A model generated the notes under the pieces. That model was not told the DNA's origin, did no database searches, and worked only from the letters and a program-made list of their open reading frames with translations. The translations under genes and the position numbers were made by a program. From a virus (lineage: Duplodnaviria > Heunggongvirae > Uroviricota > Caudoviricetes): a stretch of DNA of 30,048 nt. The DNA is taken from IMG/VR virus record IMGVR_UViG_2681813263_000016; one strand, 5' to 3'. Below are positions 2,554-29,532 of this stretch, piece after piece (position 1 is the first letter of the stretch; every line of letters starts with the position of its first letter).

Positions 2554-3086
2554 ACGGGCGGTGATGTCTTCTCATTGTCGCCGTCCTTATGAATGTGTTC
2601 GCTGAATGATTTACCCTTGATTCTGACATCTTCAGTAAATTCACAGGGACCGACGAATTTCATTTGTTTACCGATAATATTCAGCAATTCGTCGGCGGTG
2701 AGATTTACCGTTTTCCCTGAAACGTCTACCTGTTCTCCTGTGATTTCAATGACGCCGTTTTCCTTCAGGGTGATGTGTGATTTGCCGTCCCGGTGATACA
2801 CCCTGACATCGCCGGGGGACAGTCCTTTCGGGCGACATCGCTTGTCTTCCACCGCGATGGCAACCAGCCCGTCACGCCGTCCGCCAACGGCCAGCACAAT
2901 GGCTTCAGAACCTTCCGGCGGAACGGACGTAAACCCGTAGTTCTGGAAGCGTTCCACGTCGTCATCGGTGGCATCTGCCAGCGTCTGAATTTGCAGGTTC
3001 TGCCGTGCCAGACCGTCAGACACCAGGCGGACAACAGCGCGGTCAACCATCAGTCGCAGGCGGCGGGCAATTGCGTTTAATCCCAT
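2550..3086 (-). CDS. Q: baseplate assembly protein V-like / spike (Mu gp45/Q-like)
   Basis: 178-aa ORF downstream of the P-like gene; size and position typical of gpV-type spike proteins. Confidence 0.7.
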   Translation of the reverse strand: MGLNAIARRLRLMVDRAVVRLVSDGLARQNLQIQTLADATDDDVERFQNYGFTSVPPEGSEAIVLAVGGRRDGLVAIAVEDKRCRPKGLSPGDVRVYHRDGKSHITLKENGVIEITGEQVDVSGKTVNLTADELLNIIGKQMKFVGPCEFTEDVRIKGKSFSEHIHKDGDNEKTSPPV

Positions 3087-8063: not shown

Positions 8064-9565
8064 TTAAAGCTTGAACTGAATCAGGCCTGCCAGCACACGC
8101 AGCTGGTTCACCAGATTCGGGTGGCAGATAAAGTTCAGGCGGTTTTTATCACTGCTGTCACGTGTCACCTGAAGCGTGTCTTTGTAATCGCTGAAGTTCT
8201 CCACAAGGCCCGCCGGGAGAAGTTCGGTCTGGCAGATATCCAGCAGTTCTGCGGTGCACAGCTTCGGCGTCATCACCGGCTGCCCCGCATCCAGCGAGTC
8301 CAGCACGTCATCATCCGCCAGCTTGTGGCGCGGATAACGGTTCGTGAAACGGTTCTTGATGATGTAACGGATACGGCCCAGCGTGGCGAGTGACTGCACA
8401 TCAAGGTACGACACATCCGCATCACCGTACTGGTTAACCCGGTACATGGTGATTTCGCGCTCAATGCAGACGTTATCCCCGGCGTCCACCATGTGCGTGG
8501 CAATGCCGTCATGCAGCAGCAGGTTACGCTCCGGCATATCCCAGCGAACATTACGCGCAGGCGGCAGAATGCCGGTCAGGACCAGCGTCTGAAGCGGACG
8601 CGCCGGGTCAATGGCAAGGTGATACGCTGCCGTTGCGCCGTATGACGCGGCCCACATCCACGCCGGGTGCGGTGACAGGTTGGTGCCGATACAGCTAATC
8701 AGCCAGTCATTGCGGGTTTCACCAAATGTGCCTGTCTCGCCGTGTGAGCCACGAAACGCCGTCCACAGCTGCGCCTCCATCATTTTGAGCGGCCCCCAGC
8801 GGTTCAGCAGTTCATCACGCAGGGTGTTCAGGCTTTTCGTGTCGGTGAACGGGGCGATGATATCGGTAAACCACTCCGGGCCGATGGCCGCAACGGCATC
8901 CGCCATTTCCGGTGTCCCGGTGCCGCCGGTAAACGCGGTTGCGGTCACCTTCACACCTGCCGGGAAGGCTTCACCGGTGTGGTAGTTCAGGCGAACGTCG
9001 GCACCGTTGCCGGTGACGCCGTGCCAGTTCACGGTCAGCTCCACGGTATCCGTGGCATCATCCTTCACCGCAGCGGCCACCTGCGTGGCAGGCTTTTTCG
9101 TCACCGCATCAGCAATGGCTTTTGCAATGTTTTCCTTCGTAGCCCCGGCGCTCACACTCACCTGAACGGACACACCATTAATCAGCAGTGCCACCGTTCC
9201 GGCTTCAGTCGCTGTACCCAGCACGGTCAGCGTGGCTTTTGCGGCAGCGCCTTCAGGCGCGGCAACCGGCATTGCCCAGGTTTCCGTGTACGTGTTGGCA
9301 CGACGCAGCATTTTGAGCATTTCAGCCAGCATCGACCCTTTGCCATAAAGCTGGTCTGCCTGGCTGTCACTGGTGATGCGGGTCAGTGACAGGGCGTCTG
9401 CGCTGCCGGACGANNNNNNNNNNNNNNNNNNNNNNNNNNNNNNGCATGGCCCATGACCAGAATTTTTCGGCTTTGCGCGGATGCACCCTCCAGCGCCTGT
9501 GAATTGTCGATATCGATCCAGACAAGCGGGACGCGGATATCATCAGGAATTGAACCCAGCGACAT
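8064..9565 (-). CDS. L: tail sheath protein (Mu gp39/L-like), interrupted by a 30-N gap at 9414-9443 with a frame change across it
   Basis: Seen: N-terminal part MSLGSIPDDIRVPLVWIDIDNS... starts at 9565 and runs into the N-run; the 422-aa C-terminal ORF (8064-9332) is open with no stop all the way up to the gap (checked by hand, 9333-9413). Total span ~500 codons, right for a sheath. The two halves are in different frames, which the unknown true gap length can explain. Confidence 0.75.
9414..9443. other. run of 30 N (assembly gap or masked bases) inside the sheath gene
   Basis: Seen directly: 30 consecutive n characters; the flanking ORF translation carries 11 X residues. Confidence 0.99.
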
Positions 9566-12613: not shown

Positions 12614-13570
12614 TTACTCCTGTTTCGGTTTAGCGGCGAGGAACTCTTCCCCGGTAATACCCATGCTGCGACACATCGCCAGTTCGGCATCGGTCAGTGT
12701 CTGCGCGGGTTTATCCTTGCCCTGGCTGGGCTTGTCGTTGTTAACCAGCGGCTGTGCACCTTTGGTGTACTCCGCAAACTGTTTGCGGCCTTCTTCCGTG
12801 CGGCAGGTGGCAAGGAACATGTCACGGTTTGCCGGGGCGACTTTTCCGGCCCCGATGGCCGCATCCACAAGCGCCTCGGCTTCCTTCTCTTCCAGTTGCT
12901 GAAGGCGTTTTTCTGCGGTTTCGGCACGGTTCAGTGCCAGATTGTGGGTTTCCACCGGCACAAACTTCGTCAGGTCAGGTGTCTGTGCGCGGTTCAGCGC
13001 CACCTGTTCGTTCTCCTGAAGTTGTTTAATGGCGGCCACGGTATCGTCCACCGTGGCGGATTCAGCCAGCCCAAGCAGGCCGGTGATTTGCACAGGTACT
13101 GTCATCGGGTTTTTCTCCGTATTCAGTGCAGGAAAATCCAGGTTAGGTTTGTTGGTCAGCCCGACGCTGGACAGGCGCGTCACCGCACCGTCTGCGTCAT
13201 GGAAAAACGCCGGGCTGTAATAGCGGTAGCGGCGCTCGCTCAGCATCCACCGGGCGGACTCACTCCAGACAACACGCCCTTCAATGGTGCCGCTGTCCGT
13301 CACCCGCAGTGCTTCCACCCAGCCATACGCCGGAGCCTCTTCACCCCGCGGGCCTTTAATTTCGGTGGCATGTTCAATGTCCACCGGAATGTTGATGTCG
13401 GACGAACGGGCAACCACCTCATGTGGATTGCGGTTCATCCACGTCCGGCCATCGCGCCCGGTGAACTCACCCGCAGGAACGAGTTCAAGCCATTCCGGCA
13501 GTTGAGCGGGTGTCAGCTCAGGGATGGGTTCTGGCAGGGAAAAACACAGCGCCAGCAGTTCCGGTTGCAT
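12614..13570 (-). CDS. I: head maturation protease / scaffold protein, Mu I-like
   Basis: 318-aa ORF with a C-terminal coiled-coil and Lys/Glu-rich tail typical of scaffolds (...EKRLQQLEEKEAEALVDAAIGAGK...); first gene after a 214-nt intergenic region carrying a promoter/terminator-like element. Confidence 0.8.
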   Translation of the reverse strand: MQPELLALCFSLPEPIPELTPAQLPEWLELVPAGEFTGRDGRTWMNRNPHEVVARSSDINIPVDIEHATEIKGPRGEEAPAYGWVEALRVTDSGTIEGRVVWSESARWMLSERRYRYYSPAFFHDADGAVTRLSSVGLTNKPNLDFPALNTEKNPMTVPVQITGLLGLAESATVDDTVAAIKQLQENEQVALNRAQTPDLTKFVPVETHNLALNRAETAEKRLQQLEEKEAEALVDAAIGAGKVAPANRDMFLATCRTEEGRKQFAEYTKGAQPLVNNDKPSQGKDKPAQTLTDAELAMCRSMGITGEEFLAAKPKQE

Positions 13571-13619
13571 GTCAGTCTCCGTCGTCTGGGGTTACCGACG
13601 GTCAGTATGCGGAAGGCAG

Positions 13620-13641
13620 AAAAAAAGCCGGATTTACCGGC
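13620..13641 (-). terminator. intrinsic-terminator-like hairpin with T-tract (minus-strand reading GCCGG-TAAAT-CCGGC-TTTTTTT), ~50 nt upstream of I
   Basis: Seen: 5-bp GC stem, 5-nt loop, 7 T on the transcribed strand. The same 26-nt sequence recurs at 21172-21197. Confidence 0.5.
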
Positions 13642-13645
13642 TTCA

Positions 13646-13710
13646 CTGAAAACGGGGAAATACCCCCTTCAAAACCCCTTCAAAAACGCCACAGACGCTT
13701 CAAAAAAGCC
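13646..13710 (-). promoter_or_regulatory. repeat-rich putative late promoter region upstream of I (TGAAG motif x4, GGGG-N5-CCCC dyad)
   Basis: Seen on the minus strand: TTTTTTGAAGC, TTTTTGAAGGGG, TTTTGAAGGGG, then TGAAGCCGG of the hairpin element, all within ~70 nt. Inference: binding sites for a late activator. Confidence 0.3.
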
Positions 13711-13784
13711 AGGGTGTACATTCATGCCATCAGAATAAAAAACGCGTTTCTGATGCGTTTCAGGGGTATTTACGGCGGGGTGGG

Positions 13785-14549
13785 TTATTCACTGTTAAAA
13801 CGGGCCTGTCTGGCCGCCAGCTGGCGCGCCAGCTCCTGCTCACGGTTTATACCGGGATTGTAGTTCCAGCCCGGATCAATCCCTTCCGGCACATCTTCCT
13901 CTTCGCCCGTGCGTTTGTTCACCCAGCGGACAGTTCTGATTTCCGGCGCTTCGGTGTGAATGGTACCCTGTGCCGCCAGTTGCGCATACTCACCACGGCT
14001 GACCTGACGGATGGTGCATTTGCAGCCCCAGCCGTTAGGGGCAAAATGCGTCTGCCAGAACGGATGATCTACCGGCAGACACAGACGCGCCCATTTCACA
14101 TGCTCCACCCGGTGCTCACGGGATGGCCCCAGCTCGTACATCAGATACGGCATGGCCTGCTTTGTCCGCTGAATCCGTTCCCACTGGCCCGCCGCGCGGG
14201 CGGTGCGCATGTTGGTATCAAAAATCGTGCGGAGGCGGCGGTCGCTGCCCAGTTGCACGGTGCGGGTTTCACCCGTCAGCGGATCATCCATCTCCTGTAC
14301 GCCCCACCATCCGCGTTTTATCAGCAACGGTTGCAGCATCTCCCGGAACTCGCTGAACGTCTGCCCGCTTTGCAGGGCGTCTTCCACAAGGGCTTTCACA
14401 TCCGACAACAAATCCAGTTGCAGCATTTTTGCCACCGTGAAGCTGTTCCGGTGCTCTTCCCGCCATACATCCCGGTAATCAAAACCGGGGCGCAGCTTCT
14501 TCGCCTTCAGCCACGCCAGCGCCTCTTTCGGGATGAGGGTTTCACGCAT
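13785..14549 (-). CDS. F: head morphogenesis protein, Mu F-like (minor capsid protein)
   Basis: ORF 13785-14606; start placed at the internal ATG (MRETLIPKEALAWLK...), which overlaps the portal stop; position directly after portal as in Mu. Confidence 0.75.
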   Translation of the reverse strand: MRETLIPKEALAWLKAKKLRPGFDYRDVWREEHRNSFTVAKMLQLDLLSDVKALVEDALQSGQTFSEFREMLQPLLIKRGWWGVQEMDDPLTGETRTVQLGSDRRLRTIFDTNMRTARAAGQWERIQRTKQAMPYLMYELGPSREHRVEHVKWARLCLPVDHPFWQTHFAPNGWGCKCTIRQVSRGEYAQLAAQGTIHTEAPEIRTVRWVNKRTGEEEDVPEGIDPGWNYNPGINREQELARQLAARQARFNSE

Positions 14550-16113
14550 GAGCAGTGTCTCCCAGCGCACGCGCCTTAAAGCACACCTCCGCCAGTTGCA
14601 GGGCAAAGTCGTCCGCGTTCAGCGTTTCCTGAAGCTCAGGCAGGCGTTTCAGAAAGTCATCAAAACTGTCGCACTCCTGCGCCAGTGTCAGCACCGGGTT
14701 CGTGAACGCCTCGCCGGTTTTCTGCCAGTCACGCAGGGCATCATCCACCATCTGTGCCAGTTCGTCGGGGTGTTCCCTGTTCAGGGCGACGCGCTCGCGG
14801 TTCATCGCCATATCACCCGGCATCCCGGCGGAAACCGGATGCAGAACATCAGCCCCTTCGTCTGGCTCAGCCAGGCCGAACCGGTCCCGCAGCTCCGATT
14901 CCTGAACCCGCATCCCCCGGTCAATCAGCGGCACCAGAGCATCCGTCAGCGCCTTCAGATCTTCGGCTTCACTGATACGCAGAACAACACGGGGGTAGTG
15001 CGCCTGTGGCCCGTAGTTGGCCTCGATGTAGGGCCGCACCAGATATTCATTCAGCGTGTTAGCCAGCTGTCGCGCGTCCCAGCGCACAATGTCCATGCGC
15101 ACCTGATTGTGCACGTCCGCCTGTGAACGCGAACTGCCGTTATCCGTGGTCATGGTCTGCCCCAGCACAGCCTTACTGATTTGCGCATCGCACCATTCCG
15201 CCATTTCACGGAACAGTGCGCCGCCGTTATTCCGGCTGGCGGTTTCCTGCATCTCCAGTTGCATGGACTGCGGAATGGCACACCCGGCATCCGAGGCAAT
15301 GGAGGCAATCGCATCAATCAGCACGCGGATTTGCTCCTCCGTGGCGTTGGGACCGTATTTCCCCACCGTAACCGGAATGCCGAATTTTTCCGCAAATGCC
15401 CACCAGTCGCGCACGGTAAAGGATTTCAGCATGTACATCACAGCCACCAGACGGGCCAGACCGTTACGCAGCGGCAGACCGGATTTCAGACGCGGCTGGT
15501 GAACAATGAATTTTCCCGGTGTCAGCGGTACGCCATCCACCGGTTCATCGTCCGTCAGCAGGCGGAACTGGCGCAGCGTGGGCTTTTCGGCTTTCAGAAA
15601 ACGGGGATCAACCCACTCATAATCACGGGGCATCCAGTGGTTGTTGCGGGTGTCCCACAGGATTTCACAGACCGCCACGCCTTTTCCCAGCCCGTCGAGC
15701 AAATCAAACATCAGTTCGGGGATTTGCGGGGCTTCCATCAGCGCACGGATGGCGTCCGCCAGCTGCACGTCGGCATCGTCATCACTGGCGGCCACCACCA
15801 CCGGTTCGATACCTGCCACTGTCAGCTTGCGGGTGCGCAGCACCGAGGCGTAATGCAAATCACGTTCTTCCATCTCTTCGGCAAGGATAAAAAAATCACG
15901 CGTGATGCCGTCGGCGGCATTGCGCAGAATGCCTGCCAGCCTGCCGGGGTTCAGCCCGGAGGCGACGCTGATACCCGGCGAGGCCGGACGCACACCGGCA
16001 TGACGCGGACGGGCCTGTGCTTCGTTGAGCGCCTCTTTTTTCAGCGTGTCTTCCTCACCGGTTGCCGGATTCAGCAGACGGCGAACGGCCCCGGCCAGTT
16101 GTTTCAGGTTCAC
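14542..16113 (-). CDS. H: portal protein (Mu gp29/H-like)
   Basis: 523-aa ORF; apparent GTG start overlapping the terminase stop (GTGA); size and position typical of a portal. Confidence 0.8.
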   Translation of the reverse strand: MNLKQLAGAVRRLLNPATGEEDTLKKEALNEAQARPRHAGVRPASPGISVASGLNPGRLAGILRNAADGITRDFFILAEEMEERDLHYASVLRTRKLTVAGIEPVVVAASDDDADVQLADAIRALMEAPQIPELMFDLLDGLGKGVAVCEILWDTRNNHWMPRDYEWVDPRFLKAEKPTLRQFRLLTDDEPVDGVPLTPGKFIVHQPRLKSGLPLRNGLARLVAVMYMLKSFTVRDWWAFAEKFGIPVTVGKYGPNATEEQIRVLIDAIASIASDAGCAIPQSMQLEMQETASRNNGGALFREMAEWCDAQISKAVLGQTMTTDNGSSRSQADVHNQVRMDIVRWDARQLANTLNEYLVRPYIEANYGPQAHYPRVVLRISEAEDLKALTDALVPLIDRGMRVQESELRDRFGLAEPDEGADVLHPVSAGMPGDMAMNRERVALNREHPDELAQMVDDALRDWQKTGEAFTNPVLTLAQECDSFDDFLKRLPELQETLNADDFALQLAEVCFKARALGDTAHA

Positions 16114-20528: not shown

Positions 20529-21116
20529 TCATCCCCGCGTGACGGACGACACGTTGTCGATAATTTCCAGACAGGCGTCGGTCACTTTCTCCATGCGGTT
20601 AAACCAGCCGTTCAGGTATTTGCCCTGGGCAGGTTTGGATTTGATGATGTCGGCATAAAAGCGGGAACGACGGACAATGCAGCGGGTCAGCAACCAGTCC
20701 GGGGTGGACAGGCTCACTGCCTTACGGGTACGCGGACCGATGATGCCGTCAGCATCCACATCAGCGGCTTCCTGCAAAATCCTGATAGCTTTTTTAACGC
20801 CATGCTGAACCGCCGCATCGAACACAAACATCGCCACGCCATCAGGCCACTGGTCACATCCGGCAGGCAGCCAGTAATCGCGCCAGTAAATCTGCGCGAC
20901 CTGTTCGCGGGTTAAATCCCTGATGCGGGTATCCGGTTTACCGTCGCCGCTGACATCGGTTTTGCCGTCAATCACACCGTCGCGGCGGTCAGAAATGCCG
21001 TATCTGGTTTCGCCGCCACGGTCAGTGGGGTCATTGACATAGACGCCTTCGATATCGGGACGCAGAATAAAATTCAGCGCATACTCAAAGGCCGGGGAGA
21101 ATTTTTGATTTTCCAT
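20529..21116 (-). CDS. endolysin, GH108-type N-terminal domain with C-terminal peptidoglycan-binding domain
   Basis: 195-aa ORF; N-terminal ...DIEGVYVNDPTDRGGETRYGIS... resembles the GH108 catalytic motif and ...DADGIIGPRTRKAV... the PG_binding_3 motif (by eye). No N-terminal hydrophobic signal-anchor. First gene after the mor-proximal terminator. Confidence 0.75.
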   Translation of the reverse strand: MENQKFSPAFEYALNFILRPDIEGVYVNDPTDRGGETRYGISDRRDGVIDGKTDVSGDGKPDTRIRDLTREQVAQIYWRDYWLPAGCDQWPDGVAMFVFDAAVQHGVKKAIRILQEAADVDADGIIGPRTRKAVSLSTPDWLLTRCIVRRSRFYADIIKSKPAQGKYLNGWFNRMEKVTDACLEIIDNVSSVTRG

Positions 21117-21171
21117 AAAAGCACCTGTGAAGCAGATTTAAACGTGGTCTGCTTCATGGTGCCGGAGGTAT

Positions 21172-21193
21172 AAAAAAAGCCGGATTTACCGGC
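21172..21193 (-). terminator. intrinsic-terminator-like hairpin with T-tract (GCCGG-TAAAT-CCGGC-TTTTTTT) 8 nt downstream of mor
   Basis: Seen: same stem-loop and 7-T tract as at 13620-13641 (26 nt identical); lies between the Mor-family gene stop (21202) and the endolysin start (21116). Confidence 0.55.
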
Positions 21194-21201
21194 TTCATTG
21201 A

Positions 21202-21651
21202 TTAAGGACGTCGTGGCGGACGACGAACGGGGTGAGGCAGGTTCGGGGAGTGGTAAAACAAATCCGGCTGGTATTTATTACACTCCAGACGCCGCATCCG
21301 CTTGATGGCCTTGTAGACGGTTTTATACGTCACCCCGTAACGCTGAACCAGTTCAGGAATATTATGGCCGTTAAAATCACGCCAGATACGCATATCCCGG
21401 ACAAGATTCTCCAGAATATTCCCCCTCGGAACATAAACCTGCATCCCGCCGATATAGCGACAAATCGCCACAACCAGCTCAAGGGAATGGGCAGGGTCTG
21501 CGCCAATCCGGGCCAGCTCTTTACGCAGCAGTGCGTTCAGTTCAGAAAGTAACGCCGGATAAGCCGTGTTTTCCTGGTAATCGTTAAGGTATTCCAGAAC
21601 GCTGTCGTCCCGGAAGTCTTCGAATAAATCCTGCTCTTTCATCTGTTTCAT
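21202..21651 (-). CDS. mor: Mor/C-family transcriptional activator (middle/late operon regulator)
   Basis: 149-aa ORF; C-terminal ...YVPRGNILENLVRDMRIWRDFNGHNIPELVQRYGVTYKTVYKAIKRMRRL... matches the Mor/C family HTH region as I recall it; sits directly after gemA as in Mu. Confidence 0.8.
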   Translation of the reverse strand: MKQMKEQDLFEDFRDDSVLEYLNDYQENTAYPALLSELNALLRKELARIGADPAHSLELVVAICRYIGGMQVYVPRGNILENLVRDMRIWRDFNGHNIPELVQRYGVTYKTVYKAIKRMRRLECNKYQPDLFYHSPNLPHPVRRPPRRP

Positions 21652-22199
21652 ACAGCAATTCTCCCGCTGTTTCGTGCGCGGGCATATGCACTGGTCAGTG
21701 CATCATAGCCGCGCAGCTTCCGCCCGGTTTCGCTCACAGGTAAAGGCACACCATGTCGGGCAAAGGCTTCCCGGATGCAGCGCATATGCCACTGTTTGAG
21801 CGTTTCGAGCACAACATGCAACGATTCCCCGTGACACCAGGCCAGCGTGGAAACACCCTGACCGCCATTACGTCTGGCCGTCAGGCGTTCAACGTATTTG
21901 TCCAGCGCAGCGTCGCTGATATCGGAGACGAAACCATCAAGGAACATCTGCTGCCAGATTTTATAAATCTTCTCGCGCGGTGTGACATGCCCCTTAAAGC
22001 GACGGCGGGGATGTTTTTTCTGCTTCTTAAAACCGCGCTCTTTCATGGCATCGAGCACACGTTCCAGTTGTGCAACGGACAGCTCGCGGCAACTGGTTTT
22101 GCCCGTGTGCTGCACCAGAAAGGCGCGGTAAGTGTCATCGTCGAGTTGTAGATCACGACGGGCGACATGAATTAATTTAATCAGGGATGTGCGATTCAT
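21648..22199 (-). CDS. gemA: GemA-like regulatory protein (Mu gp16 family)
   Basis: ORF 21648-22253; start placed at the internal ATG (MNRTSLIKLIHVARRDL...), preceded by GGAGG; position directly upstream of mor. Confidence 0.7.
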   Translation of the reverse strand: MNRTSLIKLIHVARRDLQLDDDTYRAFLVQHTGKTSCRELSVAQLERVLDAMKERGFKKQKKHPRRRFKGHVTPREKIYKIWQQMFLDGFVSDISDAALDKYVERLTARRNGGQGVSTLAWCHGESLHVVLETLKQWHMRCIREAFARHGVPLPVSETGRKLRGYDALTSAYARARNSGRIAV

Positions 22200-22272
22200 T
22201 ATCGTACCTCCAGAAAAGGGGGCGGTGCGGCAACACCGCCAGAATCCACTCACTAAACAGAGGAAACTTTTT

Positions 22273-29341: not shown

Positions 29342-29532
29342 CTTTCCTTTAACCTACAAAATTACCCGCGCGGATATCCGGTCGGATATCCGTATGGATA
29401 AAATCGTAGATCAACCAAAGTACCAATGCAAGGTATTTTGGTTGATTTTGCGGTGATTTGTTTTTCCCTTTCCAATTCAATTGGATACAAGGAAAAGAAC
29501 CTTTATACAGAAAAATACCTGGAGGTACTTTT
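29342..29532. promoter_or_regulatory. divergent early/repressor promoter-operator region
   Basis: Seen: palindromic decamer CGGATATCCG twice as direct repeats 12 bp apart (29371-29380, 29383-29392); 14-bp-arm inverted repeat TCAACCAAAGTACC / GGTATTTTGGTTGA (29411-29445); CCAATT-c-AATTGG (29472-29484); AT-rich. Established: Mu-type phages hold operators and divergent promoters between c and ner. Confidence 0.55.

What the first reader, a model, noticed from the sequence alone, without database searches (positions are those of the whole stretch)
21172..21197. Identical 26-bp hairpin plus T-tract element at the head of the lysis operon (copy 1 of 2)
The sequence AAAAAAAGCCGGATTTACCGGCTTCA occurs at 21172-21197 and again, base for base, at 13620-13645; the next 4 nt differ at one position. 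On the transcribed strand it reads TGAAGCCGG-TAAAT-CCGGC-TTTTTTT. This copy sits 8 nt after the mor stop and about 70 nt before the endolysin ATG, which is where Mu has its activator-dependent lys promoter. One element may therefore be both terminator of the early operon and activator site for the late one. A further 8-bp-arm inverted repeat (GAAGCAGA-N11-TCTGCTTC, ~21129-21155) lies in the leader of the endolysin gene.
Basis: partly seen in the sequence, partly recalled or inferred. Interest (0 to 1): 0.65.

Follow-up and report, generated by a model that had tools for sequence, protein, structure and literature searches.

The report
Mor-activated late promoters doubling as terminators

Summary
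The 26-mer occurs exactly twice, at 13620-13645 and 21172-21197, where none is expected by chance. The window is a Mu-like prophage of E. coli, transcribed on the minus strand.

The element matches 24 of 26 bases of phage Mu's middle promoter Pm. There, the activator Mor binds a 16-bp box that covers the 5' flank, 5' arm and loop of the same hairpin. The window's only Mor/C-family gene is a Mor orthologue (61% identical). No C gene is present.

In 124 related sites the element, or a diverged form of it, always lies 64-97 nt upstream of the endolysin gene or just upstream of the head protease gene. The invariant bases are those of the Mor box, and a -10-like hexamer follows at a fixed distance. 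The 3' arm changes by compensatory substitutions. The T-run is invariant only at the early/late boundary.

The best reading is a Mor-dependent promoter core that, as RNA, is also an intrinsic terminator (-12.6 kcal/mol plus U7). It is homologous to Mu Pm, not to Mu's C-dependent lys promoter.

Extras: a third, hairpin-less Mor box inside a baseplate gene, and leader fold-backs that cover the ribosome site only in read-through RNA. This is a new member of a known kind, of modest interest.

The parts
21172..21197 (-). Copy 1 of the 26-mer: hairpin AAGCCGG-TAAAT-CCGGCTT plus T7, between mor and the endolysin gene
   Evidence: Exact match. Terminator-like. Folds at -12.6 kcal/mol. 24/26 identical to Mu Pm.
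13620..13645 (-). Copy 2 of the 26-mer, between the F-like head gene and the head protease gene I
   Evidence: Exact match. The flanking genes were identified. The hairpin itself is -12.6 kcal/mol (centroid); the MFE of the 41-nt stretch is -12.8.
21184..21199 (-). Predicted Mor box of the lys promoter, AATGAAGCCGGTAAAT. It corresponds to Mu Pm positions -51 to -36.
   Evidence: All invariant columns of 52 distinct related sites fall in this box. The Mu numbering was derived.
13632..13647 (-). Predicted Mor box of the I promoter, AGTGAAGCCGGTAAAT
21156..21161 (-). Predicted -10 hexamer CACCAT of the lys promoter, 25-30 nt from the hairpin centre. Predicted start near 21148.
   Evidence: A CAnnnT hexamer sits in the same register at all lys sites and at canonical I sites, and 1 nt further at diverged I sites and the intragenic site. 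Mu Pm has TATCCT in that register.
13604..13609 (-). Predicted -10 hexamer CATACT of the I promoter. Predicted start near 13596.
21202..21651 (-). Mor orthologue, the only Mor/C-family gene in the prophage
   Evidence: Pfam Mor, 4e-30. 61% identical to Mu Mor and 32% to Mu C. It is the only such gene in the full prophage.
20529..21116 (-). Endolysin (GH108 plus a peptidoglycan-binding domain), first gene downstream of copy 1
12614..13570 (-). Head maturation protease (Mu I-like), first gene downstream of copy 2
21120..21163 (-). lys leader fold-back. GGCACC, which overlaps the -10 hexamer, pairs with the ribosome-site bases GGUGCU.
   Evidence: -21.2 kcal/mol, z -5.9. RNA from the predicted start folds at only -3.1 kcal/mol. 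Family-wide opening-energy test.
13579..13601 (-). I leader hairpin CCGUCG/CGACGG. Its 3' arm overlaps the ribosome site GGAG. It is weak in this window and strong in relatives.
2703..2718 (-). Third Mor-box match, AGGGAAAACGGTAAAT, inside the gp45-like baseplate gene. It has no hairpin and no T-run. A -10-like TATTAT lies at 2674-2679.
   Evidence: The box pattern has 3 matches in the window against 0.01 expected. Box-compatible synonymous bases are kept in relatives at 63-70% protein identity. The full prophage has exactly 3 boxes, all on the transcribed strand.

Best explanation
Each copy of the 26-mer is the core of a Mor-dependent promoter of the phage Mu Pm type.

On the DNA, a Mor oligomer would bind the 16-bp box that spans the 5' flank, the 5' arm and the loop of the hairpin. 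These are positions -51 to -36 relative to the predicted start. Mor would recruit sigma-70 RNA polymerase to a promoter that has no usable -35 hexamer. The 3' arm CCGGCT occupies the -35 position. The T-run is the upstream part of the spacer. A weak -10 hexamer (CACCAT or CATACT) follows 25-30 nt from the hairpin centre.

On RNA arriving from upstream, the same bases form a 7-8-bp G+C-rich hairpin followed by U7, which is an intrinsic terminator. Copy 1 would therefore end the early operon just after mor and, once Mor has accumulated, start the lysis/packaging operon. Copy 2 would end that operon and start the head operon.

The prophage has no C protein, so Mor acts directly as the late activator, giving a two-step cascade instead of Mu's three.

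Shown here: the sequence homology to Mu Pm, the conservation pattern, the gene context and the folding energies. Inferred: Mor binding, the start sites and termination in vivo.
For: Homology to Mu Pm:
- Mu Pm reads AGTAAAGCCGGTTAATCCGGCTTTTTTT against AATGAAGCCGGTAAATCCGGCTTTTTTT here.
- The Mu record annotates Pm at 9163-9233, with a predicted terminator at 9179-9200 inside it.
- Published work places the Mor site as two 5-bp inverted repeats in a 16-bp element centred at -43.5. The footprint is -56 to -36, there is no -35 hexamer, and the element lies just upstream of the non-optimal -35 (PMC4287176, PMC4390567, bioRxiv 10.1101/2025.05.02.651988).
- The window's Mor is 61% identical to Mu Mor, with the same recognition helix TVYKAI[K/R]RMRRL.

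Position:
- All 56 IMG/VR relatives that hold lys carry the element 64-97 nt upstream of it, even where Mor and Lys are only 60-72% identical and an extra gene follows mor.
- Among one genome from each of 185,579 species, the element occurs at 22 places. Sixteen are in Enterobacterales Mu-like prophages, and every one of these with enough flanking sequence lies upstream of lys or of I.

Conservation:
- Invariant columns in 52 distinct sites are offsets -13, -9, -8, -5, -4, -3, -2, 0, +1 and +2, which make up the Mor box, plus +8.
- A -10-like hexamer sits at a fixed distance.

Hairpin and terminator:
- Two stem pairs change by compensatory substitution (GC to AU in 7 sequences, CG to GC in 12). 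94.5% of cells are paired against 88.7% in shuffles, 0 of 500 shuffles reaching the observed value.
- The T7 run is invariant in 45 distinct lys sites but decays at many I sites.
- The hairpin folds at -12.6 kcal/mol.

A hairpin-less third box inside a gene also fits the view that the box is the promoter part.
Against: - No transcript, binding or reporter data exist for this prophage. Start sites and termination are inferred.
- The -10 hexamers are weak. CACCAT matches the consensus at 3 of 6 positions.
- In Mu, bases just downstream of the Mor box are also reported as needed for activation. Part of the conservation of the 3' arm and T-run could therefore reflect promoter function rather than termination.
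- The compensatory changes probably stem from few independent events among related sequences.
- I could not read a paper that shows termination at the Mu Pm hairpin. The held evidence is a TransTermHP prediction in the GenBank record. My recollection of an early-transcript terminator near 9.2 kb in Mu is unverified.
Confidence: 0.8

Rival explanations
1. The element is a Mor-dependent promoter only. The hairpin and T-run are there because the promoter needs those bases, and they do not terminate transcription to a useful degree in vivo.
For: Mu work reports that bases immediately downstream of the activator box are critical for activation. The 3' arm lies at the -35 position and the T-run in the spacer. 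Many I sites have lost the T-run yet keep the box and the -10 hexamer.
Against: The stem is kept by compensatory changes at two pairs. The symmetry centre of the stem (offset 0) differs from that of the Mor box (offset -5.5). The T7 run is invariant exactly at the early/late boundary, in 45 of 45 distinct lys sites, and relaxed between two late operons. The intragenic third box has neither a 3' arm nor a T-run. The hairpin plus U7 is a textbook terminator at -12.6 kcal/mol.
Confidence: 0.12
2. The element is an intrinsic terminator only, present twice. The late promoters lie elsewhere or depend on something else.
For: Both copies meet the generic terminator criteria. Identical hairpins occur as apparent terminators in unrelated Bacteroidota genomes.
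Against: A terminator tolerates loop and flank changes. Here the loop TWAAT and the 5' flank bases A-13, G-10, A-9 and A-8 are the most conserved positions. Diverged I sites lose the T-run and part of the stem but keep these bases. A -10-like hexamer is kept at a fixed distance. The sequence matches the experimentally defined Mor site of Mu. No sigma-70 consensus promoter was found near either gene start.
Confidence: 0.05
3. The two copies are a dispersed host or mobile repeat, or a recent duplication or gene conversion, with no specific role at late gene starts.
For: The two copies are identical over 26 nt, while their wider flanks differ.
Against: Only 22 occurrences were found in 185,579 species genomes. 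All Enterobacterales occurrences are inside Mu-like prophages, at one of two fixed gene junctions wherever the flanking sequence allows a check. The complete prophage has 2 copies and the flanking E. coli DNA has none. Both positions are conserved across lineages whose proteins have diverged to 60-70% identity.
Confidence: 0.02

Closest known systems
Phage Mu middle promoter Pm with its Mor-binding dyad (Howe laboratory; PMC4287176, PMC4390567)
   Same: The sequence is nearly the same: 24 of 26 bases of the 26-mer, with the same T7 run. Mu has a -10 hexamer in the same register (offsets 25-30). There is no -35 hexamer. The element lies directly after mor. A predicted terminator hairpin lies inside the promoter. 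The cognate activator is an orthologue with the same recognition helix.
   Different: In Mu there is one such promoter, and it drives the middle operon that encodes C. Here there are two intergenic copies plus a probable intragenic one. They sit in front of the lysis/packaging, head and baseplate/tail genes, and there is no C gene.
[quoted passage not shown]
   Same: The genome positions correspond: before lys, before I, and inside a tail-region gene. Mu PP lies inside gene N. The logic is also the same: an activator box centred near -43.5 and no -35 hexamer.
   Different: The activator box sequences differ. At Mu Plys the predicted terminator lies next to the box rather than within it. The activator here is of the Mor type, not the C type.
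Rho-independent (intrinsic) terminators
   Same: A G+C-rich stem of 7-8 bp, a 5-nt loop and a U7 tail at -12.6 kcal/mol, placed after the last gene of an operon.
   Different: The loop and 5' flank are conserved in sequence, which a plain terminator does not require.
Fold-back inhibition of IS10 transposase translation in read-through transcripts (recalled from memory, not checked here)
   Same: The 5' arm of the leader structure lies upstream of, or across, the predicted start. Only RNA coming from upstream can therefore cover the ribosome site.
   Different: This is a phage late operon, not a transposase. It is untested, and the effect is weak at this window's I leader.

Membership tests
Mor-dependent promoter of the Mu Pm type | A 16-bp imperfect dyad (two 5-bp inverted repeats) that binds Mor, centred about 43.5 bp upstream of the start | tested here: met
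   The boxes AATGA-AGCCGG-TAAAT and AGTGA-AGCCGG-TAAAT align base for base with Mu's AGTAA-AGCCGG-TTAAT. The box-to--10 distance equals that in Mu. The position relative to the start is inferred, because the start is not mapped.
Mor-dependent promoter of the Mu Pm type | A recognisable -10 hexamer but no -35 hexamer | tested here: met
   CACCAT and CATACT sit at offsets 25-30. The -35 position holds CCGGCT, which matches TTGACA at 2 of 6 positions. The sigma-70 consensus scan finds no promoter there.
Mor-dependent promoter of the Mu Pm type | A cognate Mor protein encoded by the same phage | tested here: met
   ORF 21202-21651 matches Pfam PF08765. It is 61% identical to Mu Mor, with a conserved beta-linker and recognition helix.
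Mor-dependent promoter of the Mu Pm type | Transcription that depends on Mor, and Mor binding to the box | not testable with these tools
   This needs EMSA or footprinting, reporter fusions and 5'-end mapping.
Intrinsic terminator | A stable G+C-rich hairpin directly followed by a U-run, downstream of an operon | tested here: met
   8 pairs, 5 of them G-C, a 5-nt loop and T7. -12.6 kcal/mol with z about -3 to -4. Copy 1 starts 4 nt after the mor stop. Copy 2 lies 139 nt after the F stop.
Intrinsic terminator | Transcript 3' ends in the U-run | not testable with these tools
   This needs Term-seq or in vitro transcription.
C-dependent Mu late promoter (Plys, PI, PP, Pmom) | A C protein, and a C-type activator box upstream of the -10 hexamer | tested here: not met
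   There is no second Mor/C-family gene in the window or in the full prophage. The sequences upstream of Mu Plys and PI do not resemble the element.
Dispersed host repeat (REP/BIME-like) | Many copies spread over the host chromosome, not tied to one mobile element | tested here: not met
   There are 22 places in 185,579 species genomes, and the enterobacterial ones are all inside Mu-like prophages. The E. coli DNA flanking the prophage holds no copy.
Described RNA families (Rfam 15) | A match at or above a family's gathering score | tested here: not met
   Only two sub-threshold matches were found, with E-values of 0.5-0.6.

The most novel reading that the evidence does not exclude
This widespread enterobacterial family of Mu-like prophages runs a two-step cascade. 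A single Mor orthologue fires all the structural and lysis operons from three Pm-type promoters. The two intergenic promoters are built as double insulators. A terminator is written into the activator site and -35 region. A fold-back uses promoter bases (the -10 and start region) as an anti-ribosome-site arm. RNA reading in from the early operon, or from host genes around a randomly inserted prophage, would therefore be stopped. If it is not stopped, it could not be translated into endolysin or head proteins. Only RNA started by Mor would be translatable.
Probability: 0.4. Interest if true: 0.5.

Novelty: new member of a known kind. Interest (0 to 1): 0.35.

Why it matters
The result gives a concrete, testable promoter map for a prophage family found in about 80 of 5,426 complete E. 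coli genomes and in Klebsiella, Raoultella, Serratia, Brenneria, Kluyvera and others.

It shows that the Mor box defined in Mu is conserved almost unchanged across proteins that have diverged to 60-70% identity. It also shows that Mu's three-step cascade can be shortened to two steps by placing Pm-type promoters in front of the late operons.

The natural variants form a ready-made mutational series that separates the Mor box from the hairpin and the T-run. Some sites have all three parts. Some I sites keep the box and stem but lose the T-run. The intragenic box stands alone. This series could help settle which bases of Pm serve activation and which serve termination.

Tried and rejected
- My first numbering of Mu Pm anchored on the wrong one of two GTAAA motifs. 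It put the hairpin centre at -45 and left no plausible -10 hexamer. I rejected it because it disagreed with the GenBank promoter range (-62 to +10) and with the symmetry centre of the conserved bases. The numbering I adopted puts the start at Mu 9224, the -10 hexamer at TATCCT and the hairpin centre at -38.
- RNAalifold on MAFFT alignments of the leaders failed for lys (0 pairs) and found only 4 pairs for I. The leaders differ too much in length and sequence to align. I replaced it with per-sequence folding and opening-energy tests.
- A first measure of ribosome-site accessibility, the mean unpaired probability, showed a clear effect at I leaders but none at lys leaders. The opening-energy measure with a shuffled-extension control showed an effect at both. 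The lys result therefore depends on the measure used.
- I looked for a copy upstream of the com/mom-like genes, which lie outside the window. There is none.
- The Rfam search gave nothing at threshold.
- The key older papers were not held: Artsimovitch and Howe 1996 in NAR and in PNAS, and Ma and Howe 2004. A search for the Mu early terminator 't9.2' found nothing.

Full report
**What is in the sequence.**
- The 26-mer AAAAAAAGCCGGATTTACCGGCTTCA occurs exactly at 13620-13645 and 21172-21197 and nowhere else, even with three mismatches allowed. None is expected by chance.
- The similarity extends to 42 nt at 88% identity.
- All genes in the region run on the minus strand. On that strand the element reads TGAAGCCGG-TAAAT-CCGGC-TTTTTTT.
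- The window is a Mu-like prophage. The order is transposase genes, gam, gemA (21648-22253), a Mor-family gene (21202-21651), copy 1, and a GH108 endolysin (20529-21116).
- Further on come terminase, portal, an F-like head gene (13785-14606), a 214-bp gap holding copy 2, the I-like protease (12614-13570), the T-like major head protein, and the tail and baseplate genes.
- Close relatives sit in 80 of 5,426 complete E. coli genomes.

**Identity of the element.**
- The Mor-family protein is 61% identical to Mu Mor and 32% to Mu C. It is the only member of that family in the window and in the complete prophage of E. coli FDAARGOS_943.
- In phage Mu, the sequence directly after mor reads ACAGTAAAGCCGGTTAATCCGGCTTTTTTTACGTCC. 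This matches 24 of the 26 bases.
- The Mu GenBank record annotates this stretch as the Mor-activated middle promoter Pm (9163-9233). It also places a TransTermHP-predicted terminator (9179-9200) inside it.
- Published work states that Mor binds two 5-bp inverted repeats in a 16-bp element centred at -43.5. The footprint is -56 to -36. Pm has a -10 hexamer but no -35 hexamer. The bases at -57 to -53 are GTAAA.
- A recent cryo-EM preprint places the dyad just upstream of the non-optimal -35 element.
- Combining these facts with the annotated range (-62 to +10) fixes the Mu start at record position 9224 and the -10 hexamer as TATCCT. The Mor box is then AGTAA-AGCCGG-TTAAT.
- The box therefore covers the 5' flank, the 5' arm and the loop of the hairpin. 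The 3' arm falls at the -35 position, and the T-run falls in the spacer.

**Comparative evidence.**
- Sixty IMG/VR contigs encode relatives of the window's Mor at 63-100% identity.
- In every one of the 56 that also hold lys, GAAGCCGGT[A/T]AATCCGGCTTTTTTT lies 64-97 nt upstream of the lys start. This holds where Mor and Lys are only 60-72% identical.
- It also holds where 360-560 bp, containing an extra gene, separate mor from the element. The element is therefore tied to the start of lys.
- A scan of one genome from each of 185,579 species found the element at 22 places. Sixteen are in Enterobacterales Mu-like prophages, and every one of these with enough flanking sequence lies upstream of lys or of I.
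- The other six are in Bacteroidota with no Mu genes nearby. They are most simply chance look-alike terminators. The 'host repeat' explanation is excluded.
- Offsets below are counted from the middle base of the loop. The 45 distinct lys sites are invariant from -10 to +14 except for the A/T position in the loop.
- The I sites are more varied. Some are canonical, as in this window. In many lineages the T-run and part of the 3' arm have decayed.
- Across 52 distinct sites, the invariant columns are -13, -9, -8, -5, -4, -3, -2, 0, +1 and +2, which make up the published Mor box, plus +8.
- A -10-like hexamer (CAnnnT or GACACT) follows at offsets 25-30 or 26-31, the register of Mu's TATCCT.

**Is the hairpin more than a by-product?**
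- The symmetry centre of the stem (offset 0) is not that of the Mor box (offset -5.5).
- Two stem pairs change by compensatory substitution: G-C to A-U in 7 distinct sequences and C-G to G-C in 12. Overall, 94.5% of cells are paired against 88.7% in shuffles (0 of 500 reached this). Slid registers pair far worse.
- These sequences are related, so the number of independent events is small.
- The RNA hairpins fold at -12.6 kcal/mol, and Mu's folds at -12.2.
- The T7 run is invariant at the boundary between early and late genes. It is relaxed between the two late operons. This is the pattern expected if termination matters mainly at the first site.
- I therefore favour a truly dual element. The caveat is that Mu mutational work also implicates the bases just downstream of the box in activation.

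**A third box.**
- The invariant-base pattern ANNGAANNCGGTWAAT matches three times in the window, against 0.01 expected. Two matches are the known sites. The third is at 2703-2718 on the transcribed strand, inside the gp45-like baseplate gene.
- The third site has no complementary 3' arm and no T-run. It does have TATTAT at offsets 26-31.
- In most relatives whose protein is only 63-70% identical (seven degenerate exceptions, below), the codons remain GGG AAA (A/T/G)CG GT(A/T) AAT. The synonymous third positions that coincide with box invariants are kept. The residue changes among T, S and A while C-5 and G-4 stay.
- One variant, found in two loci, has different residues downstream yet still carries TATAAA at offsets 26-31. 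In seven loci (L112-L114, L127-L129 and L130) the box is degenerate or absent.
- The complete prophage has exactly three boxes, all on the transcribed strand.
- Mu itself has only Pm on the transcribed strand. Mu's C-dependent PP is likewise intragenic, inside gene N.
- This supports the view that the box is the promoter determinant, and that the hairpin and T-run are an added function of the intergenic sites.

**Leader structures.**
In RNA that includes the promoter, GGCACC (overlapping the -10 hexamer) pairs with the ribosome-site bases GGUGCU. UGAAGCAGA pairs with UCUGCUUCA.
- That fold is -21.2 kcal/mol with z -5.9. RNA from the predicted start (about 21148) folds at only -3.1 kcal/mol.
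- Equivalent folds with different sequences occur in the other lineages, at both lys and I.
- Opening the ribosome site and start codon costs about 10 kcal/mol in RNA that starts upstream. It costs 5.0 (lys) or 2.7 (I) kcal/mol in RNA from the predicted start.
- Shuffling only the 23-nt upstream extension brings the cost down to about 5 kcal/mol. The real value exceeds the shuffle mean in 39 of 41 lys leaders and 29 of 31 I leaders.
- The window's lys leader exceeds all 25 shuffles. Its I leader does not (8 of 25 shuffles are at least as high).
- A simpler accessibility measure showed the effect only at I.
- Mu's own PI leader has the same kind of fold (-14.7 kcal/mol, z -4.6).
- I read this as a possible second layer of insulation against read-through. 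It is an inference and was not part of the original finding.

**Verdict.**
- The element is the counterpart of Mu's Pm, a system studied since the 1990s. It is not a counterpart of Mu's lys promoter, so it counts as a new member of a known kind.
- What goes beyond Mu is the wiring. There is no C gene. Three Mor boxes sit in front of the late operons. Natural variants separate the box, the stem and the T-run.
- I found no description of this in the searchable literature, but that library lacks most older papers.

Noticed in passing
window 2703-2718 (-), with TATTAT at 2674-2679 (-): A third Mor-box match lies inside the gp45-like baseplate gene, with no hairpin and no T-run. Synonymous codon positions keep the box in most relatives at 63-70% protein identity. 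It is probably an intragenic late promoter for the baseplate and tail-fibre genes, comparable to Mu's intragenic PP.
   Followed up: yes
window 21120-21163 (-) and 13579-13601 (-): Leader fold-backs use promoter bases as the 5' arm and cover, or abut, the ribosome site. They can form only in RNA that reads in from upstream. The effect is strong at lys here and weak at I here. It is strong at both sites across the family.
   Followed up: partly
L001 10023-10053 (phage Mu, PI leader): Mu's C-dependent PI leader has the same kind of fold-back (-14.7 kcal/mol, z -4.6). Its 5' arm starts a few bases after the -10 hexamer, and its 3' arm reaches the ribosome site. Mu's Plys leader has no such fold.
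   Followed up: partly
window about 13650-13784 (F-I intergenic region): This stretch aligns with the region between genes G and I of Mu that holds the annotated gyrase cut site, the strong gyrase site. Here it reads TTTTTTGAAGCGTCTGTGGCGTTTTTGAAGGGGTTTTGAAGGGGG. The motif is conserved in all relatives examined.
   Followed up: partly
L084 8252-9260 (complete prophage in E. coli FDAARGOS_943, beyond window position 1): A com/mom-like gene pair ends the prophage. Its upstream region has a cluster of GATC sites and a TATCCT hexamer but no Mor box. How it is activated without a C protein is open.
   Followed up: partly
L022 7768-8283 and equivalent positions in most non-E. coli relatives: An extra gene lies between mor and the element in most relatives and is absent from this window. 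In L022 it encodes a 171-aa protein with a hydrophobic N-terminus.
   Followed up: no
L050-L052, lys leader loop: The loop of the lys leader hairpin carries ACCGGATTAACCGGT. On the opposite strand this reads as a Mor-box-like sequence (CATGGAAACCGGTTAATCCGGT).
   Followed up: no
L063, L071, L075, L076, L081, L083 (Bacteroidota genomes): The same GAAGCCGGTWAATCCGGCTTTT hairpin occurs in six Bacteroidota contigs with no Mu-like genes nearby. These are presumably independent, look-alike terminators.
   Followed up: no
window 21202-21255 (-): The window's Mor is 149 aa against 129 aa in Mu. The extra length is mainly a C-terminal tail of about 17 residues. The cryo-EM preprint reports that the C-terminus of Mor matters for activity.
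   Followed up: no
window 29349-29414: A 32-nt-arm imperfect inverted repeat (72% complementary, 2 nt between the arms) lies between the ner-like gene and the divergent repressor-like ORF. This is probably the early operator/promoter region.
   Followed up: no
phage Mu record position about 35018, minus strand: The sequence ACAGGAAACGGTAAATCAGGC, near the G-segment boundary of Mu, is a one-mismatch match to the Mor-box pattern. It may be chance.
   Followed up: no
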